DNA from: the human T2T-CHM13v2.0 reference genome, Homo sapiens | Length of the DNA stretch: 64,000 bases | Assembly (NCBI GenBank): GCA_009914755.4 | Contig: CP086569.2 | Span: 640,001-704,000, forward strand | Reading direction: 5' to 3' | Shown: in pieces, positions 6,091 through 47,463 of the stretch | How positions within the stretch are numbered: position 1 is the stretch's first letter | How the letters are laid out: each line of letters starts with the position of its first letter | Translations under genes and position numbers: made by a program | Notes under the pieces: model-generated | Database searches by the model: none | The model's input: the letters and a program-made list of their open reading frames with translations, nothing else | What the model was told of the DNA's origin: nothing

Positions 6091-7029
6091 TTCATTTACA
6101 TTTCAATCTTCACCTCATGAATGTAAAAGCTCAGCCGGCAAATTAATAACAGGGTGATGAGGACGCCTCCCTGCACTGGGAAGGGGGGCACCACCTCCCC
6201 TCGTTTCCAACCCCTAGAAGCCGACAGCCCCTTCCTGGCCATTGTGTTCGGCAGCCGTCTCATTTACCGGCCCGCGGTGAATGACATTACAGAGAAAGGC
6301 ATATCCAGAGTGACACAAATGTATTTCTGTCCCAAGCAAGGCAGTCTATTTTCATAGAATCAAGGGGCTATTTGTCTGGGGACGATTTAGTTTCCATGAA
6401 AAATTAAAATGGTTTTCTGTGCTGCTATAGGGTGGCGAAATTTAATTTGTCACTCGTTTACTAAAGCAGGTATAAAAAGGAGAAGAATTGGATGTCTGAT
6501 GGGCTGAAATTGGCGACGTCCCTCGGTTTGGTCTCCCAAGGCCTGGGGACGCAGAGGCCTGTCCCGGCCACCCCCAACGCCCCCCTCTCCCCACCCTCGG
6601 AGGACCTGGTCATCTTAAACCAACTTACAGAAAACCTTTGGGGAGGCTGTGCCAATCACCCGGAAAACCACGTTCCTATCGATCCCCTGTCTGCGTGATT
6701 TATGGCTTCATTTTACGGTAATTGAGAATTAGTGAGGAGATGAGCAGGACTGCACGTGGTGACACGGGGTCCACATCTCATTGAATTGCGGGATGACGTG
6801 GAAATTAATGTGACACACGGGAGATGTGGAACAGGGGGCCGTGTGTCTCCAGCATCACACGGGCGTCCCCGGTCACCAGCACCCCCTCCCCGGTCTGCCT
6901 TCGAAGGCAGGATGAGGATGATTGATCCGAATCGGTTTCAATCCGTCTCAACTGCAGCCCGGCCGATGGACGGGACACTCACAATTGGATTGAGCCTCCT
7001 ACGAACAAAGTTCATCGACAGCCACCCGC

Positions 7030-7155
7030 AGGTCAATGGCTGCAGCTCACCAGCGTGGCACACGTATACGTATGTAACTAACCTGCACAATGTGCACATG
7101 TACCCTAAAACTTAAAGTATAATCATAATAAAATAAAATAAAGGAAAAAAAATAG
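7030..7155 (+). mobile_element. L1 LINE 3'-terminal fragment (~120 bp) with A-rich tail
   Basis: cgtatacgtatgtaactaacctgcacaatgtgcacatgtaccctaaaacttaaagtataat matches the L1 3' end. Confidence 0.8.
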
Positions 7156-7844
7156 GAGGTCTCGTGTCATCCGACCGCCTCAAAATGAAGTTTTGAAAAT
7201 CTACGTCTTGCAGCCGACATGCCAAATCTCTAAAGCCAACCAACAGTGGCAAAGTCGAATTACAGATGGACTCTGCTGGGCTGTTTACAGGATAATCGGC
7301 TGCTCTGATCGTGAATAAAGGTGCTAACTACTCCCCACTGTGCAGAGAGAAAAAGGTTCTAACTACCCCCACCCTACAGAGAGAAATGTCTGCGTCCCGT
7401 AAGGGCAGGAGGGGTGACAGAGGAGATCTGGGAAGCTCTAGGGGTGAAAAGAGGCTTATGTCTGGCCTCAGCCATCTCTCCAAAGCCTTACAGAGGCCTC
7501 CTCTGCAGATTTGCACACCTAAAGCTCGGCGGGGTTTCAAGACCGTTAAGAATCTCTTTTGCATTTGAACAGGGACGTAGGTGTGAACGTAGAGTGTCCA
7601 GCAGAAAAAAAAACAAACAAACAAAAAAAAAAAAAAAACGGAGCTGTGGAAAGTTCCGGAGAAGCTCACAGTGTAACAGTGGGAAATTCTTCACCTTCTG
7701 GTGCTCGGCAAATTGTTTGACAACATCTGGGTAGAAAATGGAGAGCAGAGTCTGTGAACGCTCCCCTCAAGAAAACCCGCTCATGTGTGTTTGGAAAATG
7801 CAATGGGGTTGGGATCATGGCTTTTTCTTATAAAAACACTGGGT

Positions 7845-8256
7845 GGCCCGGCGTGGTGGCTCATGTCTGTCATCCCAGCACTTTGGGAGGCCGAGGTGGG
7901 TGGATCACCTGAGGTCAGGGGTTCGAGACCAGCCTGGCCAACATGGTGAAACCCCGTCTCTATTAAAAATACAAAAATCAGCTGGGTGTGGTCACTGGCT
8001 CCTGTAATCCCAACTACTAGGGAGACTGAGGCAGGAGTATCGCAGGAGACTAGAGACATGGTGAAACCCTGTCTCTATTAAAAATACAAAAAATTAGCTG
8101 GGTTTGTGGCCTGTAATCCCAGCTGCTCTGGAAGCTGAGGCAGGAGAATCGCTTGAACCTGGGAGGTGGAGGTTGCAGTGAGCTGAGATCGCGCCACTGC
8201 ACTCCAGCCTGGGTGACAGAGGGAGACTACGTCTCAAAAAAAAAAAAAAAAAAAAG
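7845..8256 (+). mobile_element. Alu, sense, with ~90-bp internal duplication or an Alu plus a truncated Alu
   Basis: ggcccggcgtggtggctcatgtctgtcatccc ... the segment catggtgaaaccc(t/c)gtctctattaaaaatacaaaaa occurs twice ... polyA. Confidence 0.8.
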
Positions 8257-8367
8257 CTAACAAAAAACTAAAAACAGGACTCTAACTTTCCCTGTTTTCC
8301 TCTCACCAACAGTATTAAAGCATTCCTATTTCCCCACATCCTCGCCAGCATCTGTTGTTTCCTGACT

Positions 8368-8679
8368 TTTTATTTTTTTATTTTTATCTTTTATTTTTTT
8401 GAGACGGAGTTTTGCTCTTGTTGCCCAGGCTGGAGTGCAGTGGCACGATCTCAGCTCACCGCAACCTCTGCCTCGCGGGTTCAAGCGATTCTCCTGCCTC
8501 AGCCTCCCCAGTAGCTGGGATTACAGGTGCCCACCACCATGTCCGGCTAGTTTTTTGTATTTTTAGTAGAGTTGGGGTTTCTCCATGTTGGCCACGCTGG
8601 TCTCGAACTCCTGACCTTGTGATCCGTCTGCCTCAGCCTCCTGAAGTGCTGGGATGACAGGCGTGAGCCATGGCGCCCG
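8368..8679 (-). mobile_element. AluY-like, antisense, copy 1 of an Alu-plus-flank tandem duplication
   Basis: ctgaccttgtgatccgtctgcc (Y-type deletion) ... ggcgtgagccatggcgcccg. Confidence 0.9.
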
Positions 8680-44711: not shown

Positions 44712-45009
44712 CATTTTTTTTTGTTTTTTTGAGACAGAGTCTGACTCTTGTGGCCCAGGCTGGAGTGCAGCGGGGGTTATATTGGCTCACTGCAACCTCC
44801 TGGGTTCAAGCGATTCTCCTGCCTCAGCCTCCCGAGTAGCTGGGATTACAAGTGTAAGCCACCACACCCGGCTAATTTTTGTATTTTTAGTAGAGATGGG
44901 GTTTCACCATGTTGGCCAGGCTGGTCTTGAACTCCTGACCTCAAGTGATTGACCTGCCTCAGCTTCCCAAAGTGCTGGGATTACAGGTGTGACCCACCAT
45001 GCCCGACCC
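44712..45009 (-). mobile_element. Alu, antisense
   Basis: tttttttgagacagagtctgactcttgtggcccaggctggagtgcagcggg ... ggtgtgacccaccatgcccgacc. Confidence 0.9.
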
Positions 45010-45312
45010 ATTCATTCATTCATTCACTCATTCACAAGCTCACTCCATTCATTCATTCATTCATTCACTCACAAGCTCATTCATTCATTCATAAGCTCAC
45101 TCATTCATTCACTCACAAGCTCATTCATTCATTCACAAGCTCACTCATTCATTCATTCATTCACTCAAAGCTCACTCATTCATTCACAAGCTCACTCATT
45201 CATTCACAAGCTCACTCATTCGTTCATTCACAAGCTCACTCCATTCATTCATTCACTCACAAGCTCACTCACTCATTCATTCATTTATTCAGAAGCTCAC
45301 TCATTCATTCAT
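45009..45312. repeat. (CATT)n-derived ~20-24-bp tandem repeat (cattcattcattcacaagctcact)
   Basis: Read directly. The ORF track shows an [12 protein letters not shown]... peptide. Confidence 0.9.
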
Positions 45313-45568
45313 TCGAGACCAGCCTGGCCAACATGGTGAAACCCTGTCTCTACTAAAAATACAAAAATTAGCCGGATGTGGTGGCTCACGCCTGTCATCT
45401 GAACACATGTGTCAGCCACTGCGCCCGGCCAACTTTTATATTTTTTTTAGTAGAGATGGGGTTTCACCATGTTGGTCAGGCTGATCTCGAACTCCTGACC
45501 TCAAAAGATCCACCCGCCTCGGCCTCTCAAAGTGCTGGGATGACAGGTGTGAGCCACCGCACCCAGTC
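45313..45568. mobile_element. Mosaic of Alu fragments in mixed orientations
   Basis: A sense middle piece (gagaccagcctggccaacatggtgaaaccctgtctctactaaaaatacaaaaattagccgg) is followed by an antisense 5' end (gtcagccactgcgcccggcc), then an antisense left monomer (tagtagagatggggtttcaccatgttggtcagg...ggtgtgagccaccgcacccag). Confidence 0.75.
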
Positions 45569-46097
45569 CAAAGCACTCGAGTTTAATCCAGAGGTAACAC
45601 AGCAAGACTTGGGGGTCTTCCAGGCTTGGAGGTCTTCCATCCAGCCTCCAGGAATGCTTTCTCCATGGAGGTGCCCCATGAAGTTGGTAATTCAAGGCCA
45701 GGCTCATGGTGGATATCAGGAAACCTGGAAGAAAGGTCAGCGCCCACGGTGGGTTGGAAGGTCCAATCCGTGCAACTTCAGACAAAAGCTTGGAACGAAG
45801 CTGGTTCACCATGGCTGGCTGAATGCTTTGGTTGGATGGAGCAGACAGAAATCTACAGTTTTTCATCTGACTTTTGCTCCTGGGGCCTCAGGAGGGGCAG
45901 AAACAGATATGAAGCAGTTTCTACCAGGGCAACAACATCTCCGCAGAAGTTTTCTTTCTTAATCCTGTTTCCAGAGTAAGGGGGAAAAAAGGTACCCGGG
46001 GGTGGGAACACAGAGCCTGGGACCTGCATGGTTTTACCTTGGCACCTGCTCAGGGCCCTACGTCCTGTGGGCTGGCTCATAATTACTTTCTCATTAA

Positions 46098-46374
46098 GAA
46101 AGCAATCCAGCTCATGCCTGTAATCCCAGCACGAGGCAGGTGGACCGTGAGGTCAGGAGTTCGAGACCAGCCTGGCTAACATGGTGAAACCCTGTGTCTA
46201 TTAAAAATACAAAAATTACAGGCAGTGGCGGGTGCCTGTAATCCCAGCTACTCGGGAGGCTGAGGCAGGAGAATTGCTTGAACCGGGGAGGCAGAGGTTG
46301 CAGTGAGCCAAGATCATGCCACTGCACTCCAGCCTGAGTGACAGAACAAGACTCTGTCTAAAAAAAAAAAAAAA
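46098..46374 (+). mobile_element. Alu, sense, with a 5' internal deletion
   Basis: agctcatgcctgtaatcccagcacgaggcaggtggaccgtgaggtcaggagttcgagaccagcctggctaacatggtgaaaccctgtgtctattaaaaatac ... polyA. Confidence 0.9.
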
Positions 46375-47463
46375 GGGCAGTCTAAGGAGTGAGTATATCA
46401 AGACTTGGGTTTGAGAGTTAATCTGCCTCTTTATCTGTGTCTCTGCGGAAGAGGGTACACCCCTTCCTCCAACCTCAAGGCAGAGCTCTGCGAGTGGCCA
46501 GAGGAATGTGGAGTCACTTTGTTATTCTACTTGTCCTACACCCAGGGTGACTTAAAAACAGCGTTTGCCTCCAAAATGCTACCATACGTCTTCCTGAAAC
46601 ATTCCACATTTCCCCAAACCTTTGCAAGCAGCTGGGTTAAAACCGTAGGGCACAAATGCATTCCTTCGAGGAGAACTTGGCACAGCTAATCAGGAATGAG
46701 AAGGTGTCCCTTAAAAAATAACACATTTCCCCCTTTAAGATGCTTCAAGGGGCTCCCCCGGCCCTCCAGGCATGTCTGTAATTTCCCACAATTTTGCTTT
46801 ACGTCTCAATATGCTTGAATTGGATTAAGGAAAATAATCAATGTTCTCAATACGGTATTTACTTGTAATATTTTCCTTGCGCCCTAAGTTAGTTTCCCCG
46901 AGATGAAAGATGATTTTAAAAATTGCTATAGGTAATGATTTTTTATAGCTTAATTTAGATTATATTGAAAATTATGAAGGGGAGGGGAAAAAAAATCCAA
47001 CAACCCAGAATTGCCTCTACCTTATTAAACATCTCCACGTTTTTGCAATTTAAATACTACACTCAGCCGTATATTTTCTGTATTTCTATTTCCACAATAA
47101 GCATTAATAACATGGTAATATCTTTATTTCCATACTGTTTCCTTAATACACCACGGGGAGCTGGAAGCCATGTTCACTCAACAATTATTTCCATGAGAAA
47201 GAGCAGATTGTAGCAAAGGGCTCAAATTTCCTCTCGTGTGGTGGAAAACACTCCTCCCTGCCTGCTGCCTTAAGTGAACGAGTGAAAAACACTCATTGGT
47301 TTAAAAAATAAATAGCACAGCTCTGTTTGCTTACAAGCCCACCTGTCCAACTTTTCTCCAGCTTCTGGGGATGTTTGTCTCCACCCGCTGCTGGGATCCA
47401 GATGTATCAGCAAGCTACCTCTGACAGTCAGCAAATTAGAAACTCCTAACAGTTTCATGCCTA

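What the first reader, a model, noticed from the sequence alone, without database searches (positions are those of the whole stretch)
6100..47340. CpG-retaining, TAAT/ATTA-rich unique islands that look like conserved non-coding elements
Between the repeats are short unique stretches with an atypical composition for neutrally evolving primate DNA. They retain multiple CpGs outside any CpG island and are dense in homeodomain-type motifs (taattaaatttaattgg, aatttaatttgtcactcg, ctgacatttaattactgcc). Examples are 6110-6480, 9180-9470, 20830-21620, 35460-36010, 41790-41960, 42420-42640, 46690-46960 and 47200-47340. This is the signature of deeply conserved developmental enhancers, which suggests the window lies in the regulatory landscape of a developmental transcription-factor gene rather than in a gene body.
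Basis: inference. Interest (0 to 1): 0.5.

Follow-up and report, generated by a model that had tools for sequence, protein, structure and literature searches.

The report
Known SHOX downstream enhancers (CNE5–CNE7)

Summary
The eight intervals are repeat-free. Pooled, they have a CpG o/e of 0.67 against 0.37 in other unique sequence, and 38 TAAT/ATTA motifs against 25±5 expected. A scan of metagenome contigs recovered orthologues of two intervals. One contig is sauropsid (it carries a CR1 LINE), with 84% identity over 363 bp and 76% over 461 bp. The other is a compact, fish-like contig, with 94% over 69 bp and 77% over 165 bp. Order and orientation match the human sequence. Published primers for human SHOX CNE5, CNE6 and CNE7 all match the window exactly. 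This places the window at about hg19 chrX:744.9–808.9 kb in PAR1, 125–190 kb downstream of SHOX. I1 is part of CNE5, I3 is CNE6 and I4 is CNE7/ECR1. The other five islands are missing from the published human–chicken and human–Fugu CNE lists, and I could not test them. All 20 TAAT motifs in CNE6 and CNE7 are conserved in the bird, but only 2 of 28 human CpGs are. The human copies are GC-richer, with a W→S bias that fits PAR1 biased gene conversion rather than CpG retention. Verdict: a real feature that is already known.

The parts
5888..6920 (.). SHOX CNE5 (Sabherwal amplicon). The CONDOR human-Fugu sub-elements map to about 5898-5947, 6085-6144, 6248-6534, 6584-6748 and 6761-6820.
   Evidence: Both published human CNE5 primers match exactly at 5888-5915 (+) and 6893-6920 (-). 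hg19 coordinates come from PMC3123344 Table 1 and PMC4971310, mapped with an offset of 744,937.
20942..21438 (.). The part aligned to the sauropsid is 21051-21412. The deep core is 21172-21260 (CONDOR CRCNE00011100).
   Evidence: Primers match exactly at 20942-20962 and 21419-21438. L002 aligns at 84.3% over 363 bp and L003 at 94.2% over 69 bp. The human sequence is identical to the bird for 73 bp at 21185-21257 and to both bird and fish for 30 bp at 21226-21255.
35748..36268 (.). SHOX CNE7 (Sabherwal amplicon). ECR1 of Benito-Sanz is about 35643-36298. The part aligned to the sauropsid is 35792-36244.
   Evidence: Primers match exactly at 35748-35767 and 36249-36268. L001 aligns at 76.4% over 461 bp. 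L003 aligns at 77% over 165 bp and 71% over 106 bp. The alignment is A2.
9180..9470 (.). Uncatalogued CpG-rich unique island (about hg19 chrX:754,117-754,407) between two Alus. It has 19 CpGs, GC 0.55 and o/e 0.87, which is formally CpG-island-like.
   Evidence: It is not in the CONDOR list between CNE5 and CNE6. Conservation was not tested.
41790..42640 (.). Two uncatalogued islands, 41790-41960 and 42420-42640 (about hg19 786.7-787.6 kb), lying between AT-rich minisatellites.
   Evidence: They lie inside the 22-kb fragment that gave no limb activity in transgenic mice. Conservation was not tested.
46690..47340 (.). Two uncatalogued islands, 46690-46960 and 47200-47340 (about hg19 791.6-792.3 kb). 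The second has no TAAT and a CpG o/e of 0.29.
   Evidence: They lie inside the same 22-kb fragment. Conservation was not tested.
35612..64000 (.). The part of the window removed by the recurrent 47,543-bp Leri-Weill/ISS deletion. The telomeric breakpoint is near 35612, and the deletion continues about 19 kb past the end of the window.
   Evidence: The centromeric breakpoint is at chrX:828,092 hg19 and the size is 47,543 bp. Converted to window coordinates with an offset of 744,937.

Best explanation
The window is human PAR1 (Xp22.33/Yp11.3), at about hg19 chrX:744.9-808.9 kb, between 125 and 190 kb downstream of the paired-like homeobox gene SHOX. Intervals 6110-6480, 20830-21620 and 35460-36010 are parts of the published SHOX conserved non-coding elements CNE5, CNE6 and CNE7/ECR1. 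These are distal cis-regulatory modules. Their cores carry homeodomain-type (TAAT/ATTA) and CTGTCA-type sites that have not changed since the fish-tetrapod ancestor. By inference these cores are binding platforms for transcription factors. According to published 3C/4C and reporter assays they contact the SHOX promoter and modulate its expression in limb/fin, brain, heart and other tissues. The locus identity, the collinear deep conservation of CNE6 and CNE7, and the conservation of the TAAT sites are shown here. Factor binding and looping are inferred or taken from the literature. The high CpG content is a separate effect. It reflects GC-biased, faster change on the human lineage, as expected from biased gene conversion in the highly recombining PAR1, possibly together with germline hypomethylation of bound elements. 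It is not retention of ancestral CpGs. The other five islands are unique, CpG-rich PAR1 sequence of unknown conservation depth.
For: Six of six published human CNE5, CNE6 and CNE7 primers match exactly and in the correct orientation, while the CNE4, CNE8 and CNE9 primers are absent. A single offset of 744,937 reconciles the window with the published hg19 coordinates of CNE5, CONDOR CNE6 and ECR1, including the stated 135 bp of extra ECR1 flank. The metagenome scan returned a 97.5-kb contig carrying both CNE6 and CNE7 10.7 kb apart, and a 6-kb contig carrying them 0.8 kb apart. In human the spacing is 14.6 kb, and order and strand are the same in all three. Within each 6-kb locus only the CNE aligns to the window. 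The large contig carries a CR1 LINE with an RVT_1 domain and an (ATTCTATG)n tail, so it is sauropsid and probably bird. Identities of 84%/363 bp and 76%/461 bp agree with Sabherwal's human-chicken figures quoted in PMC3123344. All 20 human TAAT/ATTA motifs are identical in the bird and 14 of 20 in the fish. Only 2 of 28 human CpGs are CpG in the bird, and human GC is 0.42/0.47 against 0.35/0.37. Changes polarised with the fish are 16 W>S against 4 S>W on the human lineage and 3 against 3 on the bird lineage. The window has 27% Alu, many minisatellites and a neutral CpG o/e of 0.37, which fits PAR1. On function, CNE5 is active in chick limb buds and in 25% of injected zebrafish embryos. CNE6 and CNE7 drive weaker expression in zebrafish. 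ECR1 is active in U2OS luciferase assays and contacts the Shox promoter in 3C.
Against: The enhancer role of CNE6 and CNE7 is disputed. Both were negative in chick limb electroporation. CNE7 gave 0 of 12 ZED-like embryos in transgenic mice and lacks H3K27ac in human embryonic limb. The 22-kb fragment carrying CNE7 and islands I5-I8 gave no limb staining. I did not verify CNE5 conservation with sequence of my own; it rests on primers and the published table. The taxon of the fish-like contig is inferred only from its compaction and divergence. The substitution counts behind the gBGC reading are small (26 human-lineage changes after filtering) and span the whole amniote-to-human lineage. The hg19 offset is inferred and could be wrong by tens of bases.
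Confidence: 0.93

Rival explanations
1. All eight islands, including the five uncatalogued ones, are conserved SHOX regulatory elements. On this view the five were missed because they are short or conserved only within mammals, as the ZED enhancer is.
For: They are repeat-free and have the highest CpG o/e in the set, at 0.87, 0.95 and 0.77. There is precedent: the ZED limb enhancer nearby escaped notice because it is conserved only in non-rodent mammals. 4C-seq and H3K27ac data suggest further unmapped elements in this domain.
Against: None lies in the human-dog-opossum-Fugu CONDOR list or among the human-chicken CNEs of this interval. No match was found in the 2.8 kb downstream or the 0.85 kb upstream of the CNEs in the compact fish-like contig. 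The 22-kb fragment spanning I4-I8 had no limb activity in mice, although only 3 embryos were scored. TAAT is barely enriched in these five, at 14 against 10.9 expected. CpG richness did not track conservation even in the confirmed CNEs.
Confidence: 0.2
2. The composition signal (CpG-rich unique islands) is only a by-product of PAR1 biology: extreme male recombination, GC-biased gene conversion and local hypomethylation. On this view its overlap with true CNEs is partly coincidental.
For: Neutral unique sequence in the window already has a CpG o/e of 0.37-0.40, and Alus 0.40. Human CpGs in CNE6/7 are almost all lineage-specific and there is a W>S bias.
Against: Three of the eight picks hit the only three fish-conserved CNE clusters in 64 kb, which is far better than chance. 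The TAAT motifs in them are conserved. Composition therefore did carry information, possibly because bound elements stay unmethylated.
Confidence: 0.35
3. The islands are exons or promoters of unannotated transcripts, for example an orphan CpG-island promoter at 9130-9583, rather than enhancers.
For: 9180-9470 meets the formal CpG-island criteria, with GC 0.55 and o/e 0.87.
Against: There was no Rfam family hit. A protein search with ORFs across all eight intervals found nothing. There is no long ORF outside repeats. The literature describes no gene between SHOX and CRLF2 in this interval (Fig. 1 legend).
Confidence: 0.07

Closest known systems
SHOX downstream conserved non-coding elements CNE5, CNE6 and CNE7/ECR1 (Sabherwal et al. 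2007; Benito-Sanz et al. 2012; Kenyon et al. 2011, PMC3123344)
   Same: These are the same sequences: the primer matches are exact, the spacing is the same, and the human-sauropsid and human-fish identity levels are the same. The finding is these elements.
   Different: I1 covers about 36% of CNE5. I3 overshoots CNE6 on both sides. I4 includes about 290 bp of non-conserved sequence and misses the last 260 bp of CNE7. Five further intervals are not part of the published set.
ZED, the zeugopodal enhancer downstream of SHOX (Skuplik et al. 2018, PMC6155277)
   Same: It lies in the same regulatory domain and the same recurrent 47.5-kb deletion. It depends on HOX (TAAT-type) sites. It is a model for what the five uncatalogued islands could be.
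   Different: ZED lies at hg19 827,128-827,691, about 18 kb beyond the end of the window. It is conserved only in non-rodent mammals, whereas CNE5-7 reach fish.
Vertebrate CNE clusters around developmental transcription-factor genes (CONDOR/UCNE-type genomic regulatory blocks)
   Same: There are collinear islands of conservation in otherwise unalignable DNA. The cores are rich in homeodomain motifs. The spacing scales with genome size, at 14.6 kb, 10.7 kb and 0.8 kb.
   Different: The elements are embedded in unusually Alu-rich (27%), minisatellite-rich, fast-evolving PAR1 DNA rather than in a repeat-poor gene desert. The target gene is absent from rodents. The human copies show GC-biased divergence.

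Membership tests
Published SHOX CNE5/CNE6/CNE7 (Sabherwal set) | The sequence is bounded by the published human primer pairs | tested here: met
   All six primers match with 0 mismatches and in convergent orientation, giving amplicons of 1033, 497 and 521 bp. The 521 bp plus 135 bp of flank equals the 656-bp ECR1.
Published SHOX CNE5/CNE6/CNE7 (Sabherwal set) | Relative positions equal the published hg19 coordinates | tested here: met
   One offset (744,937) fits CNE5 at 750,825-751,850, CONDOR CNE6 at 766,109-766,197 and ECR1 at 780,580-781,235.
Published SHOX CNE5/CNE6/CNE7 (Sabherwal set) | Human-chicken identity above 70% over more than 200 bp | tested here: met
   Tested against a CR1-bearing sauropsid contig, not chicken itself. 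CNE6 gives 84.3% over 363 bp and CNE7 gives 76.4% over 461 bp. CNE5 was not tested because the contig ends before it.
CONDOR-type deep vertebrate CNE | At least 65% identity over at least 40 bp between human and a teleost | tested here: met
   L003 gives 94.2% over 69 bp (CNE6), 77.0% over 165 bp and 70.8% over 106 bp (CNE7). The teleost identity of L003 is inferred. For CNE5 this rests on the literature only.
CONDOR-type deep vertebrate CNE | The same criterion applied to the five other islands (I2, I5-I8) | tested here: inconclusive
   No match was found in the held parts of L001-L003 or in scans of genome contigs and viral contigs. They are absent from the published table. The orthologous bird positions lie outside the DNA I could fetch.
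Developmental enhancer | Reproducible tissue-specific reporter activity and contact with the target promoter | not testable with these tools
   From the literature: CNE5 is positive in chick limb, U2OS cells and zebrafish. CNE6 is negative in chick limb and weak in zebrafish. CNE7/ECR1 is positive in U2OS and 3C, and negative in chick electroporation, mouse transgenics and limb H3K27ac.
Ultraconserved element (Bejerano 2004) | At least 200 bp identical in human, mouse and rat | tested here: not met
   The longest run identical between human and bird is 73 bp. Rodents lack SHOX altogether.
CpG island | At least 200 bp, GC at least 0.5 and o/e at least 0.6 (Gardiner-Garden); at least 500 bp, GC at least 0.55 and o/e at least 0.65 (Takai-Jones) | tested here: inconclusive
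   9130-9583 and 6087-7126 pass the loose criteria, and some 500-bp windows at 6459-7078 and 8999-9514 pass the strict ones. The other intervals fail on GC or length. No methylation data were available.

The most novel reading that the evidence does not exclude
One or more of the five uncatalogued islands could be a lineage-restricted SHOX regulatory element of the ZED kind. They are at about hg19 chrX:754.1 kb and four sites at 786.7-792.3 kb. The latter four lie inside the recurrent 47.5-kb Leri-Weill deletion, whose pathogenic mechanism is still debated. Separately, the deep SHOX CNEs may be undergoing GC-biased, accelerated change on the human or mammalian lineage because they sit in PAR1. 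That would make them a natural test of how far biased gene conversion can erode constrained enhancers.
Probability: 0.2. Interest if true: 0.4.

Novelty: already known. Interest (0 to 1): 0.12.

Why it matters
This interval is clinically important. The elements themselves have been catalogued since 2007 and assayed in chick, zebrafish, mouse and human cells, so the scan adds no new biology. Two points have some value. First, reading composition alone picked out all three fish-conserved CNE clusters in 64 kb of very repeat-rich DNA. That is a caution against using CpG content as a proxy for constraint in highly recombining regions.

Tried and rejected
(1) I searched proteins with a 1114-aa concatenation of ORFs across all eight intervals, hoping to find spurious ORFs called on other vertebrates' contigs. 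There were no hits, not even human. The result is uninformative about conservation, but it argues against known coding exons.
(2) I ran the same trick with ORFs from the recovered bird and fish loci, hoping to reach more of the 97.5-kb contig through the look-up of encoding contigs. There were no hits.
(3) Full-text searches for the CNE core strings and for the contig accessions found nothing.
(4) Rfam at gathering thresholds and tRNA scans found nothing.
(5) Scans of genome contigs and viral contigs with pseudo-peptides from the five unverified islands found nothing, as expected for prokaryotic and viral collections.
(6) A BLAST with a MIR consensus written from memory gave no hits. This is weak evidence that the islands are not MIR, and no L2 or DNA-transposon library was available.
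(7) I considered spending the last protein search on SHOX itself, to fetch fish loci, or on the CR1 ORF, to extend the bird contig. I rejected both. The CNEs lie 130-165 kb from the gene in human, so a 10-kb flank would probably miss them. The CR1 anchor could not reach the positions orthologous to I5-I8.
(8) My first metagenome scan used a 3-kb flank.

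
Full report
**Observation**

The window is primate DNA. About 60 Alu copies cover 17,051 bases, or 27%. About 14.5 kb is tandem arrays, many of them AT-rich minisatellites and VNTRs. There is no Rfam family or tRNA and no convincing ORF outside repeats.

None of the eight intervals overlaps Alu, tandem-repeat or self-similar sequence.

- **CpG:** pooled, the intervals hold 100 CpGs with an o/e of 0.668, against 0.367 in the other unique sequence. None of 1000 random placements reached that value.
- **TAAT/ATTA:** there are 38 motifs against 25.2±4.6 in dinucleotide shuffles, while the unique background is slightly depleted.

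Most of the TAAT excess comes from 20830-21620. The interval 47200-47340 shows neither feature. Two neighbourhoods, 6087-7126 and 9130-9583, formally pass loose CpG-island criteria, so 'outside any CpG island' is not quite right.

**Conservation test**

No vertebrate genome collection was available, so I translated ORFs running through the most CNE-like cores and used them as pseudo-proteins. A protein-database search found nothing, not even human, and says nothing about conservation. A degenerate-pattern scan of JGI metagenome contigs found three loci.

- **L001 and L002** are two parts of one 97.5-kb contig, Ga0065711_1026191. L002 aligns to window 21051-21412 at 84.3% over 363 bp. L001 aligns to window 35792-36244 at 76.4% over 461 bp.
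- **L003** (MDSQ01006393.1) aligns to 21187-21255 at 94.2% over 69 bp, to 35832-35992 at 77.0% over 165 bp, and to 36061-36164 at 70.8% over 106 bp.

Within each locus nothing else aligns to the window, even with sensitive settings. Order and orientation are the same in all three sequences. The distance between the two elements is 14.6 kb in human, 10.7 kb in the large contig and 0.8 kb in L003.

L002 carries a CR1 LINE with a reverse-transcriptase domain and the (ATTCTATG)n tail typical of amniote, especially avian, CR1. That contig is therefore sauropsid host DNA, probably bird. L003 is more divergent and about 18-fold more compact, so I infer a teleost.

The longest run identical between human and bird is 73 bp (21185-21257). 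The longest runs identical in all three are 30 and 32 bp.

**Locus identity**

High Alu content, dense minisatellites and a raised neutral CpG o/e suggested PAR1, and therefore SHOX. Kenyon et al. 2011 (PMC3123344) list primers for the human SHOX CNEs.

| Element | Forward primer | Reverse primer |
|---|---|---|
| CNE5 | 5888-5915 | 6893-6920 |
| CNE6 | 20942-20962 | 21419-21438 |
| CNE7 | 35748-35767 | 36249-36268 |

All six match with no mismatch and in convergent orientation. The CNE4, CNE8 and CNE9 primers are absent.

A single offset of +744,937 maps the window onto hg19 chrX. It fits three published positions:
- CNE5 at 750,825-751,850.
- CONDOR CRCNE00011100 (CNE6) at 766,109-766,197, which becomes window 21172-21260 and coincides with my ultra-conserved core.
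- ECR1 at 780,580-781,235. This equals the CNE7 amplicon plus 105 and 30 bp, matching the 135 bp of extra flank stated by Skuplik et al..

The window is therefore about chrX:744.9-808.9 kb, 125-190 kb downstream of SHOX (585,079-620,146).

My identity figures match the published human-chicken values of over 70% across more than 200 bp, and about 80% across more than 400 bp for six elements.

**Mechanism**

From the sequence, all 20 human TAAT/ATTA motifs in the CNE6 and CNE7 alignments are identical in the bird and 14 of 20 in the fish. The invariant cores also contain CTGTCA-type sites and a 14-bp palindrome, AATTAAATTTAATT. This fits conserved homeodomain-factor binding platforms, which is an inference.

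From the literature:
- **CNE5:** it drives expression in chick limb buds and in brain, skin, heart and fin of zebrafish (37 of 148 embryos).
- **CNE6:** it was negative in the chick limb assay. Human CNE6 was weak in zebrafish (37 of 424 embryos).
- **CNE7/ECR1:** it was negative in the chick limb assay, and human CNE7 was weak in zebrafish (21 of 355 embryos). ECR1 enhances the SHOX promoter in U2OS cells and contacts the Shox promoter in chick-limb 3C. It gave 0 of 12 ZED-like embryos in transgenic mice and lacks H3K27ac in human embryonic limb.

These are SHOX cis-regulatory modules. Only CNE5 has solid enhancer evidence, and the limb role of CNE7 is contested.

The recurrent 47,543-bp Leri-Weill deletion has its telomeric breakpoint near window 35612, inside I4, and removes everything distal to it in the window.

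**The CpG argument**

In the aligned blocks only 2 of 28 human CpGs are CpG in the bird and none in the fish. The bird often has TG or CA at those positions.

The human copies are GC-richer, at 0.415 and 0.472 against 0.35 and 0.367 in the bird. Among differences between human and bird, human has the strong base (G or C) at 108 sites and the bird has it at 37.

Polarising with the fish and keeping only well-aligned columns gives 26 changes on the human lineage (16 W>S, 4 S>W). The bird lineage shows 6 changes (3 W>S, 3 S>W). The counts are small, but they point to faster, GC-biased change on the lineage leading to human. This is what biased gene conversion in the highly recombining PAR1 would produce (inference).

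CpG richness here is therefore not retained ancestral sequence. That CpGs are nevertheless denser in the islands than in the flanks may reflect germline hypomethylation of bound elements, which I did not test.

**The other five islands**

The islands are 9180-9470, 41790-41960, 42420-42640, 46690-46960 and 47200-47340.

- They are absent from the CONDOR human-dog-opossum-Fugu table. That table has no entry between CNE5 and CNE6, or between CNE7 and CNE8.
- They are also absent from the human-chicken set.
- They have no match in the parts of the bird and fish contigs I hold.
- Scans of the prokaryote-genome and viral collections found nothing, as expected.
- I5-I8 lie in the 22-kb fragment (window 35318-57738) that gave no limb staining in three transgenic mouse embryos.

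Their conservation depth is unknown. They may be mammal-restricted elements like the ZED, or simply PAR1 composition.

**Verdict**

Three of the eight examples are fish-to-human conserved elements. These are the long-known SHOX CNE5, CNE6 and CNE7/ECR1, so novelty is nil and interest is low. The remaining five intervals and the GC-biased divergence of the deep CNEs are the only open points.

Noticed in passing
window 34016-34662 and 35003-35250, next to about 35612: Two (ATTATA)n AT-rich minisatellite arrays and Alu fragments lie directly telomeric to the inferred telomeric breakpoint of the recurrent 47.5-kb Leri-Weill deletion. More AT-rich arrays lie at 41005-41368, 42731-44064, 60209-60482 and 62013-63219. 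These may be relevant to the instability of this interval.
   Followed up: no
window 57135-57468 versus 58279-58612; 57467-57814 versus 58857-59214: There is a 334-bp inverted duplication at 96.7% identity with a spacer of about 810 bp. An adjacent direct duplication of about 350 bp shows 89% identity. Together they form a small palindromic structure in the part of the window removed by the 47.5-kb deletion.
   Followed up: partly
window 29828-30886 and 9978-10233: A 339-bp unit is repeated 3.1 times at 95% identity. A diverged partial copy (82-86% identity) lies 20 kb away, which suggests an interspersed repeat that was locally amplified into a VNTR.
   Followed up: partly
window 54825-55802: A GC-rich (61%) VNTR with a 170-bp unit repeated 5.8 times at 95% identity. 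It produces long spurious ORFs on both strands.
   Followed up: no
window 52650-53442, 51343-51877 and 38698-39101: A fragment resembling the 3' end of L1 ORF2 is tandemly duplicated (158 bp repeated 5 times). Related copies occur elsewhere in the window, with 88% identity between 38698-39101 and 51470-51877.
   Followed up: no
alignments A1 and A2 (window 21040-21420 and 35780-36260 against L001-L003): Human CNE6 and CNE7 have accumulated about four times more fish-polarised substitutions than the bird copies. These show a 4:1 W>S bias, and nearly all the human CpGs are lineage-specific. The deep SHOX CNEs appear to be evolving in a GC-biased way in PAR1.
   Followed up: partly
L002 4000-5810: A CR1 LINE lies about 1.5 kb from the bird CNE6 orthologue. 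It has a largely intact 329-aa ORF and an (ATTCTATG)7 tail. It shows that a 97.5-kb host (bird-like) contig sits in a JGI 'metagenome' assembly.
   Followed up: partly
window 26365-27608 and 19631-20056: There are very long degenerate tetranucleotide arrays: (AGAT)n of about 316 units and (AAGA)n of about 106 units. They produce strong local GC and AT skew.
   Followed up: no
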